DNA from: an uncultured Bacilli bacterium
GTDB taxonomy: Bacteria > Bacillota_I > Bacilli_A > RF39 > UBA660
Direction of reading: 5' to 3'
Length of the DNA stretch: 30,529 nucleotides
Assembly (NCBI GenBank): GCA_947624535.1
Contig: CANQKU010000001.1
Location: 1 to 30,529 of the forward strand
Of this stretch, positions 17,392 through 29,442 are shown one piece after another. The stretch's first letter is position 1; each line of letters opens with the position of its first letter. The notes beneath the pieces are model-generated. The model searched no databases. It was not told the DNA's origin and saw only the letters and a list, made by a program, of their open reading frames with translations. The translations under genes were made by a program, and so were the position numbers.

Positions 17392-17515
17392 AATTATAGA
17401 TTTTTTCTAAATTTTATGGTAATATGAATGTCAAGAAAGAAGTACCAGTATTTAGTGGTGGTAAAAAATCTTTCTAAAGGTAATGCCTATTATATTTAGA
17501 GGAGGTGAAAGATTA

Positions 17516-18010
17516 ATGAAAAAGAAGTCTATTTTAGTTTTTTTAGTAGTTTTGACAATACTACTTACAGCGTGTGCTAAATCTAATGAAAGTAAAAAAG
17601 AAGTTAAAAATGATACTAAAAAAGAAGAAGTTAAAGAAGAAAAAAATAATATTACAGGAACTTTTTTTGCCAAGACAGAAGATGGTGTTATTAGTCATGA
17701 AAGATATATTACTTTTAATAGTGATAATACTGTATCATTACAGGTTATAGGTTGTGGAGCAGTTTGGACAAGTACAGGGAAATACACTATCAATAATAAT
17801 GTTTTAGAGATTAAAATTGATGATGATGAAGAAGATATTTTTAAATATGATATAAGTGATGACTTACTAATTGCCAAAGATGATAAATCAAAAACTATAT
17901 GTGGCTTTTGTAATGAAATATTTAACTCTTTCATCAGGGGAAATGAAGATGAGAAAGTAGAAGTTAACTCTCCAGATATAAATCCAAGCCCTGATGATTC
18001 AATGTGGTAA
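17516..18010 (+). CDS. Lipoprotein (164 aa), possibly lipocalin-like beta-barrel
   Basis: GGAGGT RBS then ATG 17516. Signal MKKKSILVFLVVLTILLTAC (lipobox LTAC), K/E-rich linker, beta-rich mature domain. Confidence 0.8.
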   Translation: MKKKSILVFLVVLTILLTACAKSNESKKEVKNDTKKEEVKEEKNNITGTFFAKTEDGVISHERYITFNSDNTVSLQVIGCGAVWTSTGKYTINNNVLEIKIDDDEEDIFKYDISDDLLIAKDDKSKTICGFCNEIFNSFIRGNEDEKVEVNSPDINPSPDDSMW

Positions 18011-18021
18011 GGAAGTGGATA

Positions 18022-18762
18022 ATGAAAAAGAAAAAAATATTATTAATTTTTTTACTAGGTTTAACCATACTACTTACAGCGTGTGGTAAAACTACTGAAA
18101 GTAAAAAAGAAGTAAAAAATAAAAACAAAAAAGAAGAAGTAGTTGAAGAAAATGAAGATAAATATCTAAAAACAATGGATATGGCAACTTTTGAAAAAGC
18201 AAGTAAATCATCAACTGATGACTTTGTAGTTTTTGCCTATGATCCAAATTTTGATAATGAGCAATATATAATAAACGAAGTAAAAGATTATATTTCTAAA
18301 AACAAAAGAGTAATTTATTTTTTAGATATAACTGACTTTGCCAATGAAAAGGTTAAAAATGTAACTGAAAGAGAAAAGAAAACTTATTATGAAAGATATA
18401 AAAAAGACATTTGTAGTAAATTTATAGAAGATCCGCTTTCTTATTATACTGAAGAAGATTGCGAAGAAGATTTTGATGACGTTGGACTTGAAGATGAAAT
18501 TCGAATGAAGTTCTTTGAAGATCATTATATTGATGATGAAGACGTTTGTGCACTTATGTATTTTCATAATAGTTCTATACTTGATACATTTAACAATTAT
18601 ATTCCTTATGGAGCATTTTCAGTATATAAAGAAGATAAGCAACAAGAAGTATTAGAAGAAGCTAACGAAAGATTACATGAGTGGCTTGATAAAGTGTATG
18701 CTCTTAGAGATGAAAAAAACATCAAAGATAAAAAAATAAAAAAAGTAACTAAAAAAGATTAG
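18022..18762 (+). CDS. Lipoprotein (246 aa), possibly thioredoxin-like fold lacking CxxC
   Basis: Signal MKKKKILLIFLLGLTILLTAC (LTAC). Alpha/beta pattern FVVFAYDP...VIYFLD...LMYFHN. Confidence 0.75.
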   Translation: MKKKKILLIFLLGLTILLTACGKTTESKKEVKNKNKKEEVVEENEDKYLKTMDMATFEKASKSSTDDFVVFAYDPNFDNEQYIINEVKDYISKNKRVIYFLDITDFANEKVKNVTEREKKTYYERYKKDICSKFIEDPLSYYTEEDCEEDFDDVGLEDEIRMKFFEDHYIDDEDVCALMYFHNSSILDTFNNYIPYGAFSVYKEDKQQEVLEEANERLHEWLDKVYALRDEKNIKDKKIKKVTKKD

Positions 18763-18782
18763 TAAATAGAAAGGAAAACTAT

Positions 18783-19295
18783 ATGAAACTTAAAAAAATA
18801 CCAGTATTGTTATTATTATGTTTAATAGTATTAACAGGGTGTAGTAGCCCAGAGCCATATAAGACAAAAAGTGAACAAGAAGCTGAAAAACAAAATAGAA
18901 CTTTTACAGGCTTTTTCGTATCCGATGAAGTAGGTGAGAATGACTCATATAAAGGAACTTATTCAGATTATATTGAGTTTAGAGATGATCATACTTTCTT
19001 TAGACAAATAGGTGGCTATATACATAAAAAAGGAACATATGAACTTGCTGATAAAGTAGATTATGAGGATGATGAGAAAGATACTAATAATGAAGTTAAC
19101 ACTGGAGATGGAAATGAAATAATAAGAGTTTACGCTGAGGGATATGAGGACAAGTTTGAAGTTTTTATAGGTAGTGAAAATTCATTAATGTATTTTCCAA
19201 AAGGTTATGATGAGGATAATCTTAGTTTGAAAAAAACATTTATGTGGCATAGAGTTGATAGTTCACAAATTGAATATGTAGAGTCAGATGACTAG
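18783..19295 (+). CDS. Lipoprotein (170 aa), beta-rich
   Basis: Signal MKLKKIPVLLLLCLIVLTGC (LTGC). TG.F...YIEFRDDHTF...GTY pattern resembles the 17516 protein. Confidence 0.8.
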   Translation: MKLKKIPVLLLLCLIVLTGCSSPEPYKTKSEQEAEKQNRTFTGFFVSDEVGENDSYKGTYSDYIEFRDDHTFFRQIGGYIHKKGTYELADKVDYEDDEKDTNNEVNTGDGNEIIRVYAEGYEDKFEVFIGSENSLMYFPKGYDEDNLSLKKTFMWHRVDSSQIEYVESDD

Positions 19296-19341
19296 AACAA
19301 AATTAATAAATAATAAATAAAAGAAGTGAGGTAGTAAAATT

Positions 19342-19953
19342 ATGGGTAGAAAGAAAAAAGTTAATGAAAAATTATGTATTATGTGTAATCAAGAAAAAGA
19401 AGATGTAAAACCACATAAACTTTTATTCTTTAATAAAAATTTATGTGATAACTGTTATCATGAAAAGATAACTTCAACAATAAAAGTAAGTGCAATTATT
19501 TCAGGTATATATATTATTCCATTATTAATTACATTTATTATTGATAGTGTAAATGGATGGGAACTAAAAATGTCGCCATTTTTTATCACATATGTAATAT
19601 TAAGTATTTTAACTTTAGGTATGTTTCATAATGGAGGTTCATCTTCTGGATATTTAGACGGTTATTTTAGTGACTATTTTATGTTTACAATAGCTGCAGG
19701 ATCAAATAAAGAACAAAATGATGCTGCAACAACTTATGTTATTTTTAAAGTTTTAGGAATTGTATTAAAAATTCTAATAGGAGCTTTATTATTACCTCTT
19801 GTTGTTGCTTATAATGTAATCATTCTAGTTAATGCAATATTAGTATTTAAAAAAGTAGCTGATAAAATTAGAATGCCAATTGTTATCGTATTATTCGTAA
19901 TACTTGCACTTGCTGCATTTTCATTAATTATGGGAATATTAGGATCATTATAA
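19342..19953 (+). CDS. Membrane protein with N-terminal CxxC...CxxC zinc-ribbon-like motif
   Basis: CIMC-x19-CDNC followed by about four hydrophobic segments. Confidence 0.75.
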   Translation: MGRKKKVNEKLCIMCNQEKEDVKPHKLLFFNKNLCDNCYHEKITSTIKVSAIISGIYIIPLLITFIIDSVNGWELKMSPFFITYVILSILTLGMFHNGGSSSGYLDGYFSDYFMFTIAAGSNKEQNDAATTYVIFKVLGIVLKILIGALLLPLVVAYNVIILVNAILVFKKVADKIRMPIVIVLFVILALAAFSLIMGILGSL

Positions 19954-19971
19954 AAGGGGTGTTGAATAAAT

Positions 19972-20619
19972 ATGAATAATAAAAGTATTAAAATATTGTT
20001 TATACTATTACTTTTAGTATGTACTTCAGCTTGCTCAAATCAAACTAAAAAAGAAGTTAAAGATAAAGAACCAAAAAAGACTGAAAAGGAAGAAACTAAA
20101 AAAGAAGTATTTAATATTAAAGGTGACTGGAAAAAAGCATATAAAGAACAACTTGATCAAATGCAAGGAGAATATTATGATGAAGAGGCATCTGAAACTA
20201 TTTCACATGATCACTATCTTCTAGTAGATATTGATAAAAATTCAGTACCTGAGTTATTTGTTCATGATGATGCATATTCACCAAGAAATATAATATATAC
20301 AATTTATACATTTGATAATAATAGTGTTTTAGAACTTGGAAGTATTATAGGAACTAACTTTGAATTTTATACTACTGATAATGATTATTTATATCAATAC
20401 TTTTTCATGCAAGGAGGGCATAGTATATATAAATATTACATAGATCCAAAACAAAAAACAATTGAAAAAGAAGAAATTGTTTCATGTTATGAATTTGATG
20501 AGAATGGTAATAACGTTGACTGTAACTATATATTAGATGAAGTTAAGCCATATGAAAATAATCAACCACAAAATCATTCAATAGATGACTATAGTGCAAT
20601 AGATGAGTATCAAAGTTAA
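19972..20619 (+). CDS. Lipoprotein (215 aa) with DxDxNxxPEL loop
   Basis: Signal ending VCTSAC, KE-rich linker, WKKAY...YLLVDIDKNSVPELFV motif seen in Firmicutes surface proteins. Confidence 0.75.
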   Translation: MNNKSIKILFILLLLVCTSACSNQTKKEVKDKEPKKTEKEETKKEVFNIKGDWKKAYKEQLDQMQGEYYDEEASETISHDHYLLVDIDKNSVPELFVHDDAYSPRNIIYTIYTFDNNSVLELGSIIGTNFEFYTTDNDYLYQYFFMQGGHSIYKYYIDPKQKTIEKEEIVSCYEFDENGNNVDCNYILDEVKPYENNQPQNHSIDDYSAIDEYQS

Positions 20620-22087: not shown

Positions 22088-22115
22088 AAGATTATCAAGC
22101 TTGATAGTCTTTTTT
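22088..22115 (+). terminator. Terminator after the envelope cluster (copy A of repeated hairpin)
   Basis: AAGATTATCAA-GC-TTGATAGTCTT plus T tract. Confidence 0.7.
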
Positions 22116-22189
22116 AGCTTTTATTTGTATTATCATATTAATTTAATATAAGAATAATGTTTCATTTTACAGTAAATTTACGTAAATAA

Positions 22190-22344
22190 GTCGTAGAATA
22201 CAAGACCAATTTGCATGAGAATAAATATTGTGATATTGTGACATTAAGCATGGAGGTAATTATATAGTAGAAGATTTTGATATTAGACTAAATAATTATT
22301 ATAGTGAAAATGAATTTGATAAAGAAGAAGGAATTATTAGATGA
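22190..22344 (+). pseudogene. Possible 3' remnant of a gene formerly coupled to the MBL gene
   Basis: Frame ...YCDIKHGGNYIVEDFDIRLNNYYSENEFDKEEGIIR* ends in an ATGA overlap with the 22341 start. An 8-bp tandem duplication (TATTGTGA x2) interrupts it. No start codon with RBS. Confidence 0.35.
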
Positions 22345-23567
22345 AAGTAAAGATAATTAAGGGTACAAATCAAATAGGTGGGTGTATTACTGAAATAGAG
22401 TCTAAATCTGCTAGAATTATAATTGACTTTGGTGAAGATTTGCCTTCTGATGAGGTAAAAGATTGTCATGAAAATCCAATGATAGATGGTCTTACTACTG
22501 GTAAAAGAAAATATGATGCTGTATTTATTACTCATAGTCATGGAGATCACATTGGACTTATTGACTATATTTTAGAAGATATTTCAGTTTATGTAGAAAA
22601 AGAAAGTAAGAAAATATATGAATTATTAAATAAGTTTACTTATAAAAATACTAGATTTAAAACAACTGATATGGAATTTAATAAACCAATTACTATTAAG
22701 GATATGAAAATAACTTTATTTAGAATAGATCATTCTTCATATAATTCTGGTATGATTTTAATAGAGTCTAATGGGAAAAAAATACTTCATACAGGTGACT
22801 ATAGAAATCATGGAAGAAAGGGAGGGTTATTTACTTCTACATTAAATAAAATTGGTGAGGTAGACTTACTTATTACGGAAGGTACTACTTTTGGAAGAAA
22901 AGATGAAAAATATAAAACTGAAGAAGACTTAGAGTTACTTGCTAGTCATGAATTTAAAAAATATAATCAAATATTTATCTTACAAGCTTCAACTAATATT
23001 GATAGAATAGTAACTTTTTATAAAGCTTCTAAAAAAGCACATAAGGTATTTATAGAAGATATTTTTACTGCTAATATTACTAATATTTTAAATAGTAATA
23101 TTCCAACTCCTAAGAAGTTTAATGATGTATATGCTTGGATACCCTTAAAATATCAAGATAAGCCTAAGAAATTTAAAGATAAGTACTTTCTTCCATTTGA
23201 AGATAGATGCAACTCTATGATAGTAGCCAATGACTTTACTATGCTTGTAAAGACTTCTATGTTAAAAGATATTAAAATGTTAAAAGAAAAGGGTGTAATT
23301 ACTAATGCTTGTTTAATATATTCAATGTGGGAGGGATATCTTGAAAAGAAAAGTTTTAAAGATTTTATAGATGGCATAAAAGATTTAGGAATTTCTTTTA
23401 AAATTATACATACTTCAGGACATGGTGATAATACTGCTAGAAAAATTGTTAATGAAATTACTAAACCTAAGAAAGTTATTCCAATTCATACTGAGAATAA
23501 AGAAATAGCTAAAGAAGTATTTAAAAATGCTATTATATTAGATGATAATGAAATATTAGAAATATAG
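22341..23567 (+). CDS. RNase J-like metallo-beta-lactamase/beta-CASP nuclease (no RNase J C-terminal domain)
   Basis: GTNQIGG, IIIDFG, THSHGDHIG (HxHxDH), DHS, HTGDYR.HG, LITEGT, HTSGH, IPIHTE. Confidence 0.87.
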   Translation: MKVKIIKGTNQIGGCITEIESKSARIIIDFGEDLPSDEVKDCHENPMIDGLTTGKRKYDAVFITHSHGDHIGLIDYILEDISVYVEKESKKIYELLNKFTYKNTRFKTTDMEFNKPITIKDMKITLFRIDHSSYNSGMILIESNGKKILHTGDYRNHGRKGGLFTSTLNKIGEVDLLITEGTTFGRKDEKYKTEEDLELLASHEFKKYNQIFILQASTNIDRIVTFYKASKKAHKVFIEDIFTANITNILNSNIPTPKKFNDVYAWIPLKYQDKPKKFKDKYFLPFEDRCNSMIVANDFTMLVKTSMLKDIKMLKEKGVITNACLIYSMWEGYLEKKSFKDFIDGIKDLGISFKIIHTSGHGDNTARKIVNEITKPKKVIPIHTENKEIAKEVFKNAIILDDNEILEI

Positions 23568-23579
23568 AGGTGAATTTAT

Positions 23580-24617
23580 ATGAAAAATTATGTAATAATA
23601 AATACAAAATCAACAGGACTTCTAAATCCATTTGATAATACTACTCTTATAAAATTAGAAGCTGTTAAATTAGATCTTAACTTTAATGAACAAGCTAAAT
23701 TTTTTGAATATATAAAACCTAGTGAAGAATTATCAAAAGAAGTAGAAGACTTTACAAAAATAACTAATACTATGTTAAAAGAACAAGGTATTTCTTTAAA
23801 AGAAGCTTTAGAAAAATTTTTAGAATTTATAAAGAATTGTTGGATTATTAGTTATAATGCTAATTTTGATATTTCATTAATTACTAAAGGTATTTATGAA
23901 ACTGGTATAGAAGATCATGAAATAAATTTTATAAGTTTAAAAGAATATTTTAAATATAAGACAAAACTATGTAAGAAAATTAAATCTTGTAAATTAGAAA
24001 ATATAGCTAAATATTATGATATAAAATATAACAACTTAAATTCTGACTGGCTTATGGTAGTTACCAAGTTATTAAAAAAAGTAATGGAAGAAGAACAGGC
24101 TTTAACAATAGATGAGTTTATAGATAAGCCTATTCCAAAAATATTACTCCCAGGATTATCTAAAAAAGATACTAAAGTTAAAGTAAGATTTCATAATGGT
24201 AAGGGCTTATCTAATGTAAGAAGTATAGAGTTTATTGATAAAACAAAAAATAGAAAAGTTTCCTATCTAACAAGTTATAATGCTATAAATAGATATGATA
24301 CAACTTTTTACGAATTGATACTTTTTAGAAAATGGAATGCTATAACTATAGATGACTTTATATATATGGATCTTGATACGATAGATTATTTTGACTATTA
24401 TAGTATATATAGTAGTAGAGATTTATCAACTGACTTAGAATTAAGAGATAAAATATTAGAAAAAATTCCATATTTAGATAAATATAATATAAAGTTAGGT
24501 TGTCTAGGTAGCATTGATGAGATAAAGAAAAATTATAAAGTACTAGGTGAAGATAATTTAACTAAGTTAATTGATCATATAAAAATATTTGGTAAAGAAA
24601 AGGTTAAGGAGGATTAG
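23580..24617 (+). CDS. DnaQ/DEDDh exonuclease-like N-terminal domain with degenerate active site plus unknown C-terminal domain
   Basis: YVIINTKSTGL (vs DxETTGL), F..YIKP, KITNTML, ALEKFLEFI, YNANFD, KLENIAKYYDI. Confidence 0.75.
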   Translation: MKNYVIINTKSTGLLNPFDNTTLIKLEAVKLDLNFNEQAKFFEYIKPSEELSKEVEDFTKITNTMLKEQGISLKEALEKFLEFIKNCWIISYNANFDISLITKGIYETGIEDHEINFISLKEYFKYKTKLCKKIKSCKLENIAKYYDIKYNNLNSDWLMVVTKLLKKVMEEEQALTIDEFIDKPIPKILLPGLSKKDTKVKVRFHNGKGLSNVRSIEFIDKTKNRKVSYLTSYNAINRYDTTFYELILFRKWNAITIDDFIYMDLDTIDYFDYYSIYSSRDLSTDLELRDKILEKIPYLDKYNIKLGCLGSIDEIKKNYKVLGEDNLTKLIDHIKIFGKEKVKED

Positions 24618-24620
24618 ATT

Positions 24621-25298
24621 GTGGCAAGATATACAAAAACTGAAACAATAGAAAAGTTAAAAAATATAAAGATAAGTGAAATATATAATAGTGCGGTTAT
24701 TAACTATAAGGGTCTTACTACAGATACTAAAGAAAAATATACTGAGGTTGTTGCTAAAGAGTTGTTAGATAATCCTAGTAAATATAATTTTGACTCTATT
24801 GAAAAAATTAATAGAAATAGAGGGTATAATGTTGGTACTCATGATGGTACTTATAATGATGAAAGTAATAGACGTGAAGAAATTATTGCTGTTAAAATGT
24901 ATTCTAATAAATATCCAAGTATTGGAAAAATGTTAGATTATCAAGTACCTCTAAAAGATAAGAAATCTACTAAGGCTGGAAAAATAGATTTAATTTCATA
25001 TAATGATGATGATAAAAAACTTTATTTAATTGAATTAAAAAATGATGCTAGTGTTGAGACTTTATTAAGATGTGTTTTAGAAATTGTTACTTATGAAAGA
25101 CAAATTAATAAAGAAAAGTTAGTTAAAGATTTTAATTTAGATAGTGAAGTAGAAGTAGTTCCTGCTATTTTGATTTTTGAGGGAACTAGACCTTATGAAG
25201 ATAGAAATGATTTGTATGTTAATAAATTAATTAAAAAATATAATATTGAGGTGTTTATTGCTAAGTCAAAAGAAGTATTTACCATTGATAAAATATAA
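24621..25298 (+). CDS. PD-(D/E)xK restriction-endonuclease-fold protein
   Basis: RREE helix, YQVPL, GKIDLI (D), YLIELK (ExK), ETLLRCVLEIVTY. GTG start with GGAGGA RBS. Confidence 0.72.
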   Translation: MARYTKTETIEKLKNIKISEIYNSAVINYKGLTTDTKEKYTEVVAKELLDNPSKYNFDSIEKINRNRGYNVGTHDGTYNDESNRREEIIAVKMYSNKYPSIGKMLDYQVPLKDKKSTKAGKIDLISYNDDDKKLYLIELKNDASVETLLRCVLEIVTYERQINKEKLVKDFNLDSEVEVVPAILIFEGTRPYEDRNDLYVNKLIKKYNIEVFIAKSKEVFTIDKI

Positions 25299-25330
25299 GT
25301 CAAATATTTAGAAGTATTGAGGAATTAAAT

Positions 25331-26098
25331 ATGAATTTAATAAAAAAAGAAAAAGAAAGATCAAAAAAATATATGTTAAAGGTAGATGATGATGGATTAG
25401 TTGAATTAACTGAAGATAATGTAGCAAGAGTTGAAGCAATGATTAGTACAGACTCTAAATATAAGAATATGACTAATGCTAGTGTTAAAGATACAAGTGG
25501 CTATTGGGGAAGTGAGTTAAAGGAAATTCTTTTTAATAAAGTAGAAAAAACTAGTGATGGTCATGACTATGAAGAAATAGTAGGAGAACTTATTAAAAAA
25601 ATCGATGCTGAAAATAGTACCCATTTAAATTCTCATAAATCTACAACGAAATTTAAAATTGATGATGTCAAAGGAATAAAAAATGTTAAAGAAAGAATCT
25701 TAGAAATAGATAAACGAGATTTAGAAGAATTTTTAAAACATCCTAAGGATACAGGATATGAGTTAATAAATATAATTAATAATCCAGTTCCAGGTGAAAA
25801 TCATCATTTCTCATTTGCAACTAAATTTTGTCATTATGCTTGTCTATATTTATTTGATAATGAATATGCAGATAATTTTTCTATATATGATAATGTTTTG
25901 GAAAAAGCATTACCTAAATATGTTAAAAAATATTTGAATGAGGAAGTATCGTTTTCTAAAGAAGATTATGGTAAATATATTGATTGTATTGATAGATTAA
26001 GAAATAAATTAAAAGAGGGAGATAAAGAAAAAAATCTAGAAAAACAAGAAATTAGTAGAAATGGACTTGATCATTTGATTTGGTATTTTCATAAATGA
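25331..26098 (+). CDS. Putative HhH/Ogg-like DNA glycosylase-fold protein
   Basis: SFATKFCH...SIYDNVL...Y..YI..I..LR...LDHLIWY. The C-terminus parallels the AIIDRH and LDLYIWY motifs of archaeal-type Ogg enzymes. Confidence 0.5.
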   Translation: MNLIKKEKERSKKYMLKVDDDGLVELTEDNVARVEAMISTDSKYKNMTNASVKDTSGYWGSELKEILFNKVEKTSDGHDYEEIVGELIKKIDAENSTHLNSHKSTTKFKIDDVKGIKNVKERILEIDKRDLEEFLKHPKDTGYELINIINNPVPGENHHFSFATKFCHYACLYLFDNEYADNFSIYDNVLEKALPKYVKKYLNEEVSFSKEDYGKYIDCIDRLRNKLKEGDKEKNLEKQEISRNGLDHLIWYFHK

Positions 26099-26113: not shown

Positions 26114-26146
26114 AAAAAGATTATCAAATAAATTGATAGTTTTTTT
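26114..26146 (+). terminator. Terminator after the four-gene operon (copy B of repeated hairpin)
   Basis: AAAAAGATTATCAA-ATAAA-TTGATAGTTTTTTT. Confidence 0.7.
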
Positions 26147-26175
26147 ATTTATAAGGAATTTCCTCCTTATAAATA
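26146..26175. repeat. Perfect 12-bp inverted repeat, candidate IS200/IS605 left-end hairpin
   Basis: TATTTATAAGGA-ATTTCC-TCCTTATAAATA just upstream of the tnpB remnant. Confidence 0.5.
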
Positions 26176-26203
26176 ATATTTTAGAAAAAATTAAAATAAA
26201 CTA

Positions 26204-26247
26204 TTGATTAAAACTAATGTTTGACTTATAATGAAGCTGTTAGGGGG
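26204..26247 (+). promoter_or_regulatory. Promoter and RBS of the mini-tnpB
   Basis: TTGATT (26204-26209), 17 nt, TATAAT (26227-26232); AGGGGG (26242-26247); ATG 26254. Confidence 0.65.
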
Positions 26248-26253
26248 ATATAC

Positions 26254-26493
26254 ATGATAATTAATAAAGCATTATCTAGAAGTATGAGAGGAAGTAAAAA
26301 TAGAGAAAAAATAATAAAAAAATTACAAAGAAATTATGAAAAATTAAGAAATGCAAGAAAATATTATACCCATTTAATAACAAGTAATTTAGTAAAAGAA
26401 AATGACATAATCGCATGTGAAACATTAAAAGTAAAAGATATGATTGAAGAAACTAAGCATCGTTTTAGAAAATATATAGAACAAATAGTTTAA
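26254..26493 (+). pseudogene. tnpB: Internally deleted TnpB (IS200/IS605 family), 79 aa
   Basis: LSRSMRGSKNREKIIKKLQRNYEKLRNARKYYTHLITSNLVKENDIIACETLKVKDM matches the TnpB segment leading into RuvC-II (E). No HTH, RuvC-I, zinc finger or RuvC-III. Confidence 0.8.
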
Positions 26494-26512
26494 AAAAATA
26501 AATCAAAAAAAT

Positions 26513-26624
26513 AAGTACGGTAGCGACTATCGGAGATTGGTCTTTGGAGGGTAGAAATTATCCAGTGAAGAAGAAAATCCAAACCGTGAGGTTTGGGCAT
26601 GATTTATAAATAAATCATTTGTTC
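26513..26624 (+). ncRNA. TnpB omegaRNA (reRNA)-like scaffold / IS right end; exact 3' boundary uncertain
   Basis: TACGGTAGCGACTATCGG...TTTGGAG...GTGAAGAAGAAAAT follows the usual tnpB 3' pattern. Hairpins CGGTAG/CTATCG, CCAAACC-GTGA-GGTTTGG (GNRA loop) and ATGATTTA-TAAA-TAAATCAT. Confidence 0.7.
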
Positions 26625-26630
26625 TTGAAA

Positions 26631-26639
26631 TGATATAAT
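26631..26639 (+). promoter_or_regulatory. Extended -10 element upstream of the GNAT gene
   Basis: TG-A-TATAAT with no recognisable -35; GAGAGGT RBS follows. Confidence 0.5.
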
Positions 26640-26665
26640 TGTATTAAGAAATTGAGAGGTATAAA

Positions 26666-27516: not shown

Positions 27517-29442
27517 ATGTATAAGGTTTGCGAAAAAGTAAATATATTTATTCCTGGGAGAATTGGATTAATTGGAGAATTAAGTGATTGGGCTAGTGAA
27601 TATAAGTTTGAAAATCAAGATATTACAGTAGGGCGTGTTATTACTTCAAAAATTGATAAAGGTATTTTTGCGACTGTTTGTAAAAGTGAAACTTTAAAAT
27701 TCCATATGGAAGAATATAGTTTTGAATGTGGAATGAATGAGGATGAATTAGACTCTGAGGCTAAAAGCGGTAGCTTTTATTCATATTTTTGTGGAACTGC
27801 ACTTCATATGTTGCGTAAGTATAACGTAGGCGGTATTTATGTAGATGTTTTATATAATACTCTACCTATTCAAAAAGGCCTAGCTTCTTCAGCAGCAATT
27901 TGTTCTTTATTTGTAAAAGCTTTTAATGAACTTTATGACCTAAATTTGAGTGAAAATGAATTGATGGATGATGCTTATTATGGTGAAAGACTTGCCCTAT
28001 CTTCTTGTGGTAGGCTAGATCAAATTGTATTAAAAAAAGAAAGTTCATTATTCAAAATGATATTTTATGAAGATTGTGTTTCTATTACACCTATAAATGT
28101 TAAGAAAGAATTAAATTTAGTAGTTGTTAATTTAATGGCTAAAAAAGATACTAAAAAAATTTTATCTTCTCTTAGAAATTGTTATCCATTTGCAAAAAAT
28201 CCAAAGCAAAAAAGATTACAAGAAATGCTTGGGGATCAAAACTATCAATTGGTGGAAGAAATGCATCAAGCTCTTAGTGAAGGTGATATAGAAAAAGTAG
28301 GTGAGTTATTTACTGAGAGTCAACTGTTAATGGATCAAGCTGCTATTCCTATTTGTAGTGAATATAAAGCTCCTGTCTTACACAGTGTTATAGAAGATGA
28401 ATATATCAAGAAATTATCATATGGAGCTAGAGGAATGGGCTCTGGTGGAGACGGCAGTATGCAAATTCTAGCTAAAGATAAAAAAGCTCAACAACTAATT
28501 TTAAAATATGTAACTGAAAAACTAAATATGGAAGCTTTTTGTTGTAATATAAAACCTGCTCATAAGATTAAAAAAGCAATTATTCCAGTCGCAGGCTTTG
28601 CTACTAGGTTGTATCCAGTTAGTAGAGCTTTAAAAAAAGCATTTTTACCAATTTATGATCAAGGTGTATTAAAGCCATTAATTTTAAAATTAGTTGAAGA
28701 TTTAGATGAAGCTGGAATTGAAGAGATATGTCTTGTTATTAATAAAGAAGATCAAGCTGAGTATGATAAAATTTTTAAAGATACCTTACCAAAAAAATAT
28801 TATCAAAAACTAGATCAAAAAAACTTAGAGTATGACTTTAACTTACTACGAATTGGTGCTAAAATTAAGTATGTTATTCAAGATGATACTTTAGGCTTTG
28901 GACATGCCGTATATTTATGCAAAGACTTTGTCAAAGATGATCCTGCTTTAATGATTTTAGGAGATACTTATTATAAATCAAATACTGATATCTCTTGCAT
29001 AAAACAAGTAATTGCTTATTACGATGAAATAGAAAAAAATATCATAGGTATCCATGAAATTGATGAAGATATGCTTGATAGATATGGAGTTTTAACAGGT
29101 GTTTGGACTGATAGTAACAAAAAACTTATGACAGTTCAAGAACTAGTTGAAAAACCTAGTCTTGAATATGCTAGTAAAAATTTAAAATTAGATAAAAAAT
29201 ACTATGGTAATTTTGGAATATGGGCTATTAAAAATGATGTTTTTACATCCCTTGAAGAAATTATTTTAAATAAAAATGTATCTAGTACTAATGAATATGA
29301 ATTTGTTGATGCTCTAGCAAGAATTTTGGATAAATCCGATATAAAAGCTTTAAAAATAGATGGTACTTCTTATGATGTTGGTAATTTAGCATCTTATCAA
29401 GAAACATTATTATCTACTATTGATAGTGATAAATTAGATTAA
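27517..29442 (+). CDS. Bifunctional GHMP sugar kinase (N) / GalU-like sugar-1-phosphate nucleotidyltransferase (C)
   Basis: PGRIGLIGELSDW, PIQKGLASSAA, GMGSGGDG; then KAIIPVAGFATRLYP, LGFGHAV, LGDT, VEKP, YDVGN. Confidence 0.87.
   Translation: MYKVCEKVNIFIPGRIGLIGELSDWASEYKFENQDITVGRVITSKIDKGIFATVCKSETLKFHMEEYSFECGMNEDELDSEAKSGSFYSYFCGTALHMLRKYNVGGIYVDVLYNTLPIQKGLASSAAICSLFVKAFNELYDLNLSENELMDDAYYGERLALSSCGRLDQIVLKKESSLFKMIFYEDCVSITPINVKKELNLVVVNLMAKKDTKKILSSLRNCYPFAKNPKQKRLQEMLGDQNYQLVEEMHQALSEGDIEKVGELFTESQLLMDQAAIPICSEYKAPVLHSVIEDEYIKKLSYGARGMGSGGDGSMQILAKDKKAQQLILKYVTEKLNMEAFCCNIKPAHKIKKAIIPVAGFATRLYPVSRALKKAFLPIYDQGVLKPLILKLVEDLDEAGIEEICLVINKEDQAEYDKIFKDTLPKKYYQKLDQKNLEYDFNLLRIGAKIKYVIQDDTLGFGHAVYLCKDFVKDDPALMILGDTYYKSNTDISCIKQVIAYYDEIEKNIIGIHEIDEDMLDRYGVLTGVWTDSNKKLMTVQELVEKPSLEYASKNLKLDKKYYGNFGIWAIKNDVFTSLEEIILNKNVSSTNEYEFVDALARILDKSDIKALKIDGTSYDVGNLASYQETLLSTIDSDKLD

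What the first reader, a model, noticed from the sequence alone, without database searches (positions are those of the whole stretch)
22341..26098. Candidate undescribed defence system: beta-CASP nuclease + dead DnaQ + PD-(D/E)xK nuclease + Ogg-like glycosylase
Seen: four co-oriented genes (gaps 12, 3 and 32 nt) between two terminators in an accessory region beyond a tRNA. All four have nucleic-acid-processing folds, and there is no methyltransferase. Known: PD-(D/E)xK nucleases, MBL hydrolases and base-excising glycosylases (e.g. Brig1, a different fold) each act in anti-phage systems. I do not recognise this combination as a named system. Inference: a modification-dependent system in which the glycosylase-like or pseudo-exonuclease subunit senses foreign or modified DNA and the nucleases destroy DNA/RNA. 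Alternatively it is a cluster of independent cargo genes.
Basis: partly seen in the sequence, partly recalled or inferred. Interest (0 to 1): 0.8.

Follow-up and report, generated by a model that had tools for sequence, protein, structure and literature searches.

The report
Two-nuclease pair with dead exonuclease insert
The four genes are real, but only three belong together: an unpublished, horizontally spread pair of DNA/RNA-cutting enzymes, here split by a disabled proofreading-exonuclease relative. The glycosylase-like fourth gene is an independent neighbour, and nobody has tested whether the pair defends against phages.

Summary
There are four co-oriented ORFs with gaps of 12, 3 and 32 nt, lying between two terminator-like hairpins in a region past tRNA-Met that five congeners do not share.

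- **Conserved unit (g1 + g3).** g1 is an EF2904/RNase J-like beta-CASP nuclease with all catalytic motifs invariant. g3 is an unnamed PD-(D/E)xK family (D123/E138/K140). Of 41 g3-family loci with at least 3 kb of flank on both sides, 33 carry a full g1 homologue on the same strand. These loci span several phyla, and the two proteins occur fused in both orders.
- **g2.** This DEDDh fold has N/K in place of D/E and no His. The family is rare (five relatives). It again sits directly after the g1 homologue on two other contigs. Elsewhere that position holds PolIII-alpha-like proteins, a 2-TM protein or a wHTH protein, so g2 looks like a lineage-specific accessory subunit.
- **g4.** It has an Ogg2/AGOG-like fold (Z 6.5) and belongs to the HI_0787_N family. 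It never co-occurs with g1-g3: 0 of 80 and 0 of 86 loci.

PADLOC names none of this. The pair's neighbours are mostly ordinary genes, so defence is plausible but not shown. This scan has flagged the same pair before on other DNA.

The parts
22089..22116 (+). Terminator-like hairpin plus T-run that closes the upstream gene (orf478). Its arms, AGATTATCAA/TTGATAGT, are the same as in the hairpin after g4.
   Evidence: folds at -9.2 kcal/mol; the pattern has only two copies in the 1.31-Mb assembly; none is expected by chance.
22277..22305 (+). Promoter-like site (TTGATA-17-TATAGT) 36 nt upstream of the g1 start codon.
   Evidence: 10 of 12 matches. This is a consensus match only; such sites are as common in shuffled sequence here.
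22341..23567 (+). [quoted passage not shown]
   Evidence: The profile hits PDB 2az4 (EF2904) at 1e-39, then RNase J, INTS11/CPSF73 and Cas14. Invariant residues: H65, H67, D69, H70, H131, D153, E180, H357, H361, H383.
23580..24617 (+). g2: a pseudo-exonuclease. Residues ~1-150 are a DEDDh (PolC/DnaQ-type) fold with N8/K10 in place of D/E and no motif-III His. Residues ~190-345 are a domain with no recognised relatives. It is a lineage-specific accessory partner of g1.
   Evidence: Only five relatives turned up among 5.8 billion proteins. The gene again follows the g1 homologue directly in L010 and L118. Its C-terminal domain is shared with a 244-aa protein lying between a PolIII-alpha-like gene and the MBL gene in L021.
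24621..25298 (+). g3: a PD-(D/E)xK nuclease of an unnamed family, 225 aa. Residues 1-84 form a family-specific N-terminal region; residues 85-225 are the nuclease fold. It is the conserved partner of g1.
   Evidence: D123, E138 and K140 are invariant. 33 of 41 well-flanked loci carry a g1 homologue. Fusions: P0331, P0356, P0357.
25331..26098 (+). g4: an Ogg2/AGOG-like helical protein of the HI_0787_N (PF27257) family, 255 aa. It is probably co-transcribed here but is not part of the conserved module.
26118..26146 (+). Terminator-like hairpin plus T-run after g4, with the same arms as the hairpin at 22089.
   Evidence: folds at -11.5 kcal/mol, z = -5.3.

Best explanation
The locus holds two separate things.

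(1) g1-g2-g3 is a local version of a conserved, horizontally spread two-nuclease module. Its core is a PD-(D/E)xK endonuclease (g3 family) and an EF2904/RNase J-like beta-CASP nuclease (g1 family). These act as one unit and are probably a physical complex.

Inferred mechanism: g3 makes the first cut in a nucleic acid. The beta-CASP enzyme, like RNase J and SNM1, then degrades from the new 5' end. A variable third protein decides when or where this happens. In other lineages the third protein is a 2-TM protein, a wHTH protein or a PolIII-alpha-like protein. Here it is a catalytically disabled PolC/DnaQ-type proofreading domain joined to an unknown domain. It may bind 3' ends or primer-template junctions without cutting them, and so point the nucleases at replicating foreign DNA.

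The most likely role is restriction of phages or other mobile DNA, but this is untested.

(2) g4 is an independent accessory gene of the HI_0787_N family with an Ogg/AGOG-like fold. It shares the transcript here by accident of insertion.

Shown: the gene structure, the folds, the intact and lost catalytic residues, the co-occurrence, the fusions, and the independence of g4. Inferred: the complex, the division of labour, the sensor role of g2, and the defence function.
For: Co-occurrence of g1 and g3:
- 54 of 80 g3-family loci from GTDB species genomes carry a full g1 homologue on the same strand. Among loci with at least 3 kb of flank on both sides the figure is 33 of 41, plus 2 with MBL remnants.
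- These loci come from Bacillota, Fusobacteria, Brachyspira, Alphaproteobacteria, Synergistota, Melainabacteria and Bacteroidales.
- g1-like genes were found in only 5 of 399 sampled genomes of the window's own phylum.

Fusions:
- g3-g1 (P0331), g1-g3 (P0356) and a partial form (P0357).

Catalytic residues:
- Both active sites are invariant.

The third slot is variable:
- A 2-TM family occupies it in 32 loci, and a wHTH protein in 4.
- PolIII-alpha-like genes sit beside the MBL gene in L016, L021 and L025. The two are fused in P0270, P0319 and the 579-aa MBL of L010.

g2:
- It directly follows the MBL gene in L010 and L118 as well.
- Its catalytic D/E are replaced and the His is absent across the family.

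g4:
- No co-occurrence in either direction. Its homologues sit in unrelated contexts: an ICE, and GNAT/MazG islands.

Setting and precedent:
- The pair is accessory. g3 was not found in 40 relatives, and the region is not syntenic in congeners.
- A beta-CASP nuclease already serves as an immune effector: Cas14 of type VII CRISPR.
Against: - There is no experiment, and PADLOC has no model for g1, g3 or g4.
- The two nearest genes on each side of the pair in ~45 loci are mostly regulators, metabolic genes and transporters. Only scattered defence hits appear, such as Zorya ZacB/C in one locus. No matched control was run.
- The pair is almost absent from viral contigs (1 locus). That neither helps nor hurts a defence reading.
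- In G020 (96% complete) g1 and g2 occur without any g3 homologue; a DUF1016/YhcG nuclease lies two genes upstream. g3 is therefore dispensable or replaceable.
- The links to polymerase-like and exonuclease-like proteins fit a repair or replication role equally well.
- The complex prediction gave no verdict.
Confidence: 0.5

Rival explanations
1. All four genes form one modification-dependent defence system. The Ogg-like g4 would sense or excise modified bases, and the nucleases would destroy the marked DNA. This resembles END nucleases, where an inactivated EndoIII/Ogg domain guides a fused nuclease.
For: - The gap before g4 is only 32 nt with no terminator, so g4 is probably co-transcribed.
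- Matching hairpins flank exactly these four genes.
- OGG-like domains do act as sensors in published defence systems: END nucleases (PMC12191111) and Ceres as cited in PMC13700489.
- g4 keeps an invariant Lys (K165) and Asp (D181, D187).
Against: - None of 80 g3 loci holds g4 within 8 kb, and none of 86 g4 loci holds g1, g2 or g3 within 6 kb.
- g4 homologues have no conserved neighbour at all.
- The g1/g3 module is complete without g4 in every other genome examined.
Confidence: 0.07
2. The g1/g3 pair, with its polymerase-like or exonuclease-like partners, is a DNA-repair, replication-restart or RNA-turnover module rather than an immune system. An example would be processing of blocked ends or cross-links, as SNM1/Artemis and NucS do.
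For: - The nearest solved relatives of g1 are RNase J and SNM1/Artemis-type enzymes. The best structural match of g3 is the repair nuclease NucS.
- The pair recurs beside, or fused to, C-family polymerase-like and DEDDh-like proteins.
- Neighbouring genes are mostly ordinary genes, not defence genes.
Against: - The distribution is very patchy: 5 of 399 genomes in the phylum, and none of 40 close relatives for g3. The pair is also spread across phyla, which is unusual for a repair pathway.
- Several loci lie on integrative or conjugative elements: L100 has an integrase, YqaJ, RadC and ArdC; L011 has relaxase fragments.
- The exonuclease partner here has lost its catalytic residues.
- A 2-TM partner is the commonest third gene.
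Confidence: 0.25
3. The module serves a mobile element: replication, maintenance, addiction or counter-defence of an ICE or plasmid. It would be element cargo rather than host immunity.
For: - Some copies sit inside elements.
- It is associated with replisome-like proteins.
- In the window it lies in a variable region beside an IS605-type tnpB remnant.
Against: - Most of the 80 loci show no element hallmark among their nearest genes.
- No integrase, relaxase or replication initiator lies in the window's variable region.
- The replisome-like partners are often truncated or lack catalytic residues.
Confidence: 0.1

Closest known systems
EF2904 of Enterococcus faecalis (PDB 2az4) and RNase J (beta-CASP metallo-beta-lactamase nucleases)
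   Same: g1 has the same MBL plus beta-CASP architecture and the full set of metal-binding and A/B/C motif residues. The profile E-values are 1e-39 to EF2904 and 3e-31 to RNase J.
   Different: EF2904 has a structure but no published function that I could find. g1 lacks the C-terminal domain of RNase J and scores 78 bits against a cut-off of 820 for the RNase J1 model. It is also tied to a PD-(D/E)xK partner, which RNase J is not.
PD-(D/E)xK nucleases NucS/EndoMS, XisH, and the nuclease domains of Upx and Can2
   Same: g3 residues 85-225 share the fold (Z 9.6, 8.4, 9.3 and 7.8) and the D...ExK triad.
   Different: There is no sequence-level relationship. The N-terminal 84 residues, including the conserved TTDTKEKYTE block, have no counterpart. 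There is no CARF, helicase or second nuclease domain in the same chain.
DnaQ and the PolC proofreading exonuclease (DEDDh family); the DEDDh domain of Cas2-DEDDh
   Same: The N-terminal half of g2 matches these at E 3e-10 to 1e-7. It meets Pfam RNase_T and the PADLOC 'DEDDh' model.
   Different: The first Asp is Asn in all six family members, the Glu is Lys in the window, and the motif-III His is missing. An extra ~155-aa domain with no recognised relatives follows.
END nucleases (nuclease fused to an inactivated EndoIII/OGG-like sensor domain; PMC12191111)
   Same: A member of the Ogg/EndoIII fold superfamily lies next to nucleases.
   Different: END nucleases are single polypeptides (PLD or another nuclease plus iEndoIII). 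Here g4 is a separate gene that never co-occurs with the nucleases elsewhere, and it keeps candidate catalytic Lys/Asp residues.
Cas14, the beta-CASP effector of type VII CRISPR-Cas
   Same: It is a beta-CASP nuclease used as an immune effector. g1 matches the NCBIfam model at 5e-12 and the PDB entry 8yhd at 1e-16.
   Different: No Cas5/Cas7, CRISPR array or guide RNA lies near g1. The score is far below the family cut-off (45 bits against 800).

Membership tests
beta-CASP metallo-beta-lactamase nucleases (g1) | MBL motifs 1-4 (D, HxHxDH, H, D) and beta-CASP motifs A (D/E), B (H) and C (H/V). | tested here: met
   D29, H65-x-H67-x-D69-H70, H131, D153, E180, H357/H361 and H383 are invariant in 30 homologues. 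Pfam Lactamase_B_2 scores 49 bits against a cut-off of 27.
RNase J proper (g1) | Reaches the curated family score and has the C-terminal dimerisation domain. | tested here: not met
   NF047419 scores 78 bits against 820; TIGR00649 scores 57 against 400. The match covers only residues 3-237, and the protein is 408 aa against ~555.
DEDDh 3'-5' exonucleases (g2) | The fold, together with the five catalytic residues D, E, D, D and H. | tested here: not met
   The fold criterion is met (RNase_T 47.6 bits against 24). The catalytic criterion is not: the D-x-E position reads N-T-K in the window and N-x-E/D in relatives, and no His-x4-Asp motif is present. Loss of activity is inferred, not measured.
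PD-(D/E)xK nuclease superfamily (g3) | A restriction-endonuclease-like alpha-beta-beta-beta-alpha-beta core carrying the D...(D/E)xK triad. | tested here: met
   The model has pLDDT 94. VIA Z is 9.6 (NucS), 9.3 (Upx), 8.4 (XisH) and 8.1 (AF1548). D123, E138 and K140 are invariant in 25 sequences.
HhH-GPD / Ogg-AGOG DNA glycosylases (g4) | The HhH glycosylase fold, with a catalytic Asp (and Lys in bifunctional enzymes) at the HhH-GPD motif. | tested here: inconclusive
   The four best of 48,161 chains are Ogg2, MagIII and two AGOGs, but Z is only 5.1-6.5, below the tool's own caution line for helical proteins. Pfam AGOG and OGG give E 0.08 and 0.12. K165, D181 and D187 are invariant, but I could not map them onto a solved active site.
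Named anti-phage systems in PADLOC-DB v2.0.0 | The proteins match the system's HMMs. | tested here: not met
   No hit for g1, g3 or g4. g2 hits only the generic Cas-associated 'DEDDh' model. DefenseFinder itself was not available.
END nucleases | A nuclease domain and an inactivated EndoIII/OGG-like domain in one protein, or at least a conserved pairing of the two. | tested here: not met
   The genes are separate, and the co-occurrence of g4 with g1-g3 is 0 of 80 and 0 of 86.
A multi-gene system, as claimed for all four genes | The components recur together in unrelated genomes. | tested here: not met
   Met for g1 + g3 (33 of 41 loci; fusions). Met within one clade only for g1 + g2 (window, L010, L118). 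Not met for g4.

The most novel reading that the evidence does not exclude
The g1/g3 nuclease pair is the effector core of an undescribed family of immune systems whose swappable third component is the sensor. In the window's clade that sensor is built from disabled replisome parts: a dead PolC/DnaQ proofreading domain here, and PolIII-alpha-like proteins in sister genomes. These would recognise replication intermediates of invading DNA and unleash the two nucleases.
Probability: 0.25. Interest if true: 0.8.

Novelty: new variant of a known kind. Interest (0 to 1): 0.5.

Why it matters
If the beta-CASP plus PD-(D/E)xK pair is an immune effector, it is a widespread module of gut and oral anaerobes that no defence catalogue lists. 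It comes with a clear experimental handle: two intact active sites, natural fusions, and a set of interchangeable third genes.

The window adds a compact three-gene form. Here the third gene is a catalytically dead proofreading exonuclease. That ties the simple pair to the larger operons with polymerase-like genes seen in sister genomes, and it offers a small construct for testing whether disabled replication proteins serve as sensors.

If the pair proves to be a repair or RNA-turnover device instead, it would give a function to the EF2904 structural-genomics family.

Showing that g4 is independent also stops a false four-gene 'system' from entering catalogues.

Tried and rejected
- **Complex prediction.** Complex prediction on g1 + g3 + g2, with g2 as the partner, scored 0.00. 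That is 'no answer', neither for nor against binding.
- **Sequence searches against PDB.** Profile searches with g3 and g4 found nothing meaningful. Foldseek against PDB gave only weak hits for both models, so the fold assignments rest on VIA-align.
- **orf478 as a fifth component.** It has no similarity to the 484-aa gene upstream of the MBL gene in L010, and a terminator-like hairpin separates it from g1.
- **MBL fusions containing g2.** P0251 and P0263 were tested for a fused g2 and showed no similarity.
- **g4 plus GNAT as an ancestral pair split by the tnpB remnant.** The GNATs share only generic family similarity.
- **Phage origin.** One viral contig carries a g3 relative and four carry g4 relatives, out of 2.9 million.
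- **The matching hairpins as element ends.** They are not found in any of the other 199 fetched loci, and nothing else marks a mobile unit.
- **Literature.** Searches for the pair, for EF2904 and for MBL-fold defence proteins found no description of this module.
- **g2 C-terminal domain.** The Atlas feature search gave no hit above noise.


Full report
**What is there.** The window is a 25% GC stretch of a 1.31-Mb, 67%-complete MAG. Its first 16.9 kb hold core genes: ylqF-type GTPase, RNase HII, topA, xerC-like, secDF, relA, dtd, a Mur ligase, an SDR and tRNA-Met. In five genomes of the same genus the order dtd / AI-2E transporter / Mur ligase / SDR / tRNA-Met is kept. Nothing that follows the tRNA in the window is found there. 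The finding therefore lies in a variable region.

The four ORFs are exactly as described: 22341-23567, 23580-24617, 24621-25298 and 25331-26098, all on the + strand, with gaps of 12, 3 and 32 nt. Hairpins followed by T-runs sit just before and just after the block, at 22089-22108 and 26118-26140. They fold at -9.2 and -11.5 kcal/mol. They share the arms AGATTATCAA/TTGATAGT, a pattern with only these two copies in the assembly and none expected by chance.

**The four proteins.**
[quoted passage not shown] It meets Pfam Lactamase_B/B_2. In an alignment of 30 homologues the HxHxDH motif, H131, D153, the beta-CASP motif A Glu (E180), and H357/H361 and H383 are invariant. Its profile finds the uncharacterised E. 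faecalis protein EF2904 (2az4, 1e-39), then RNase J, INTS11/CPSF73, Cas14 and SNM1/Artemis. It is not RNase J itself: 78 bits against a cut-off of 820, and no C-terminal domain.
- **g2** has a DEDDh fold: RNase_T at 47.6 bits, with the best NCBIfam hits to the PolC exonuclease region. Where DnaQ and PolC read D-x-E it reads N-T-K. The Asn is shared by all five relatives, and no motif-III His is present. Residues ~190-345 have no recognised relatives.
- **g3** has no Pfam or NCBIfam family. It does have at least 476 homologues, with invariant D123, E138 and K140. Its model (pLDDT 94) is a PD-(D/E)xK fold over residues 85-225: NucS Z 9.6, Upx 9.3, XisH 8.4.
- **g4** belongs to a family of more than 660 proteins, some annotated PF27257 HI_0787_N. 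Its model (pLDDT 92) matches Ogg2 of T. maritima (Z 6.5), MagIII and two AGOGs as the top four of 48,161 chains. Sequence-level matches to Pfam AGOG and OGG are only E ~0.1. 'Ogg-like' is therefore a reasonable fold call, not a family membership.

**Which genes belong together.** I fetched 80 loci encoding g3 relatives from one-genome-per-species collections.
- 54 carry a full-length g1 homologue on the same strand. Among the 41 loci with at least 3 kb on both sides, 33 do, and two more keep MBL remnants.
- The loci come from Clostridia, Bacilli, Negativicutes, Fusobacteria, Brachyspira, Alphaproteobacteria, Synergistota, Melainabacteria and Bacteroidales. In contrast, g1-like genes occur in only 5 of 399 sampled genomes of the window's phylum.
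- Among 150 representatives of the g1 family, three are fusions with a g3-family domain. P0331 has g3 at the N terminus, P0356 has it at the C terminus, and P0357 carries a partial g3-like domain ahead of the MBL.
- Two of the three g1-like genes in Bacilli that lack a g3 homologue are preceded by an overlapping gene with a D...ExK motif. One of these aligns to the g3 profile at hhalign E 1.6e-4.

The beta-CASP plus PD-(D/E)xK pair is thus the conserved unit.

**The third gene.** The usual order is g3, then g1. Between them, or beside them, 32 loci carry a ~230-aa protein with two N-terminal transmembrane helices, and four carry a wHTH protein. Sixteen loci have a further ~130-aa protein just upstream.

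In the window's own clade of small-genome gut Bacilli, the MBL gene is instead accompanied by replisome-like proteins.
- PolIII-alpha-like genes (PHP plus the NTPase domain, 640-690 aa) lie next to it in L016, L021 and L025.
- The L010 MBL protein has a PolIII-alpha fragment fused to its N terminus.
- Full fusions exist elsewhere (P0270, P0319).

g2 fits this pattern. Its only relatives with readable context (L010, L118) again follow the MBL gene directly. Its C-terminal domain recurs in a 244-aa protein lying between the PolIII-alpha-like gene and the MBL gene of L021. In G020 (= L010, 96% complete) there is no g3 homologue at all; a DUF1016/YhcG nuclease lies two genes upstream. g2 is therefore a clade-specific accessory of g1, and g3 can be replaced.

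**g4 is separate.**
- None of the 80 g3 loci holds a g4 relative.
- None of 86 loci with g4 relatives holds g1, g2 or g3.
- The neighbours of g4 differ from locus to locus. Examples are an ICE with MobL/TraG/resolvase, and an island with GNATs, a nucleoside phosphorylase and MazG. No neighbour family is shared beyond near-identical contigs.

Published work does use OGG/EndoIII-like domains as sensors of modified bases in defence (END nucleases, PMC12191111; Ceres, as cited in PMC13700489). The comparative data give it no support for this locus.

**Is it defence?**

In favour:
- The distribution is patchy and crosses phyla.
- The setting is variable.
- Several copies lie on integrative elements.
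- The third gene is swappable.
- A beta-CASP immune effector already exists (Cas14).

Against, or neutral:
- PADLOC has no model for the pair.
- The two nearest genes on each side in ~45 loci are mostly regulators, GNATs, HAD hydrolases, kinases and transporters. Only scattered defence hits appear. I ran no matched control.
- The polymerase and exonuclease links would also suit a repair role.
- The complex prediction returned no verdict.

I put the structural conclusions at about 0.8: g1 + g3 as the core, g2 as a clade-specific accessory, g4 as independent. I put the defence reading at about 0.45.

**Relation to earlier work.** I found no paper describing this pair. This scan has flagged the beta-CASP plus PD-(D/E)xK pair on other DNA many times, and also operons with 'dead replisome' parts plus two nucleases. 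My own tests agree on the pairing, the fusions and the 2-TM partner. One of those notes records that a check found the polymerase catalytically intact in many rows. I did not examine the polymerases here and make no claim that they are dead.

Noticed in passing
window 22089-22108 and 26118-26140: Two terminator-like hairpins with identical arms (AGATTATCAA ... TTGATAGT, then a T-run) flank exactly the four-gene block. They are the only two copies in the assembly. The whole block may have arrived, or been duplicated, together with its terminator. No other mark of a mobile unit was found.
   Followed up: partly
window 26146-26640: A 90-aa ORF (26221-26493) matches only the tail of the OrfB_IS605/TnpB profile (E 1.6e-9). 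It is followed by a GC-rich hairpin at 26578-26597. This looks like a remnant of an IS605-type element between g4 and the GNAT gene.
   Followed up: no
L032, L035, L036, L041, L050 and about 27 other loci, between or beside the g3 and g1 homologues: A ~230-aa protein family with two N-terminal transmembrane helices (conserved GGIFG...KD..GT) and a soluble C-terminal domain. It has no Pfam family and is the commonest third gene of the nuclease pair. It is absent from the window.
   Followed up: partly
L041:7589-7993, L043:358-762, L044:4091-4498 and about 13 other loci: A ~130-aa protein family (conserved FCND.F.IPPVKTFL ... GAFWG.VFKF) ends about 10 nt before the g3 homologue in 16 loci, mostly Oscillospiraceae. 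It may be a fourth component there.
   Followed up: no
L016:6059-8753 and L021:9359-12179: In the nearest relatives, the MBL gene is preceded by a truncated PolIII-alpha-like gene (PHP plus NTPase domain, 666-687 aa). In L016 a 235-aa protein with a weak KOW match comes before that. I did not check whether the polymerase active site is intact.
   Followed up: no
window 17483-20619: Four or five lipoprotein-like ORFs in a row follow the tRNA. The first two share a 110-nt 5' block at 85% identity (repeat finder family D2).
   Followed up: no
window 27517-29442: A 641-aa fusion of a GHMP kinase and a nucleotidyltransferase. It is present in only 7 of 16 congeners and lies on other contigs there, so the variable region extends past the finding.
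   Followed up: partly
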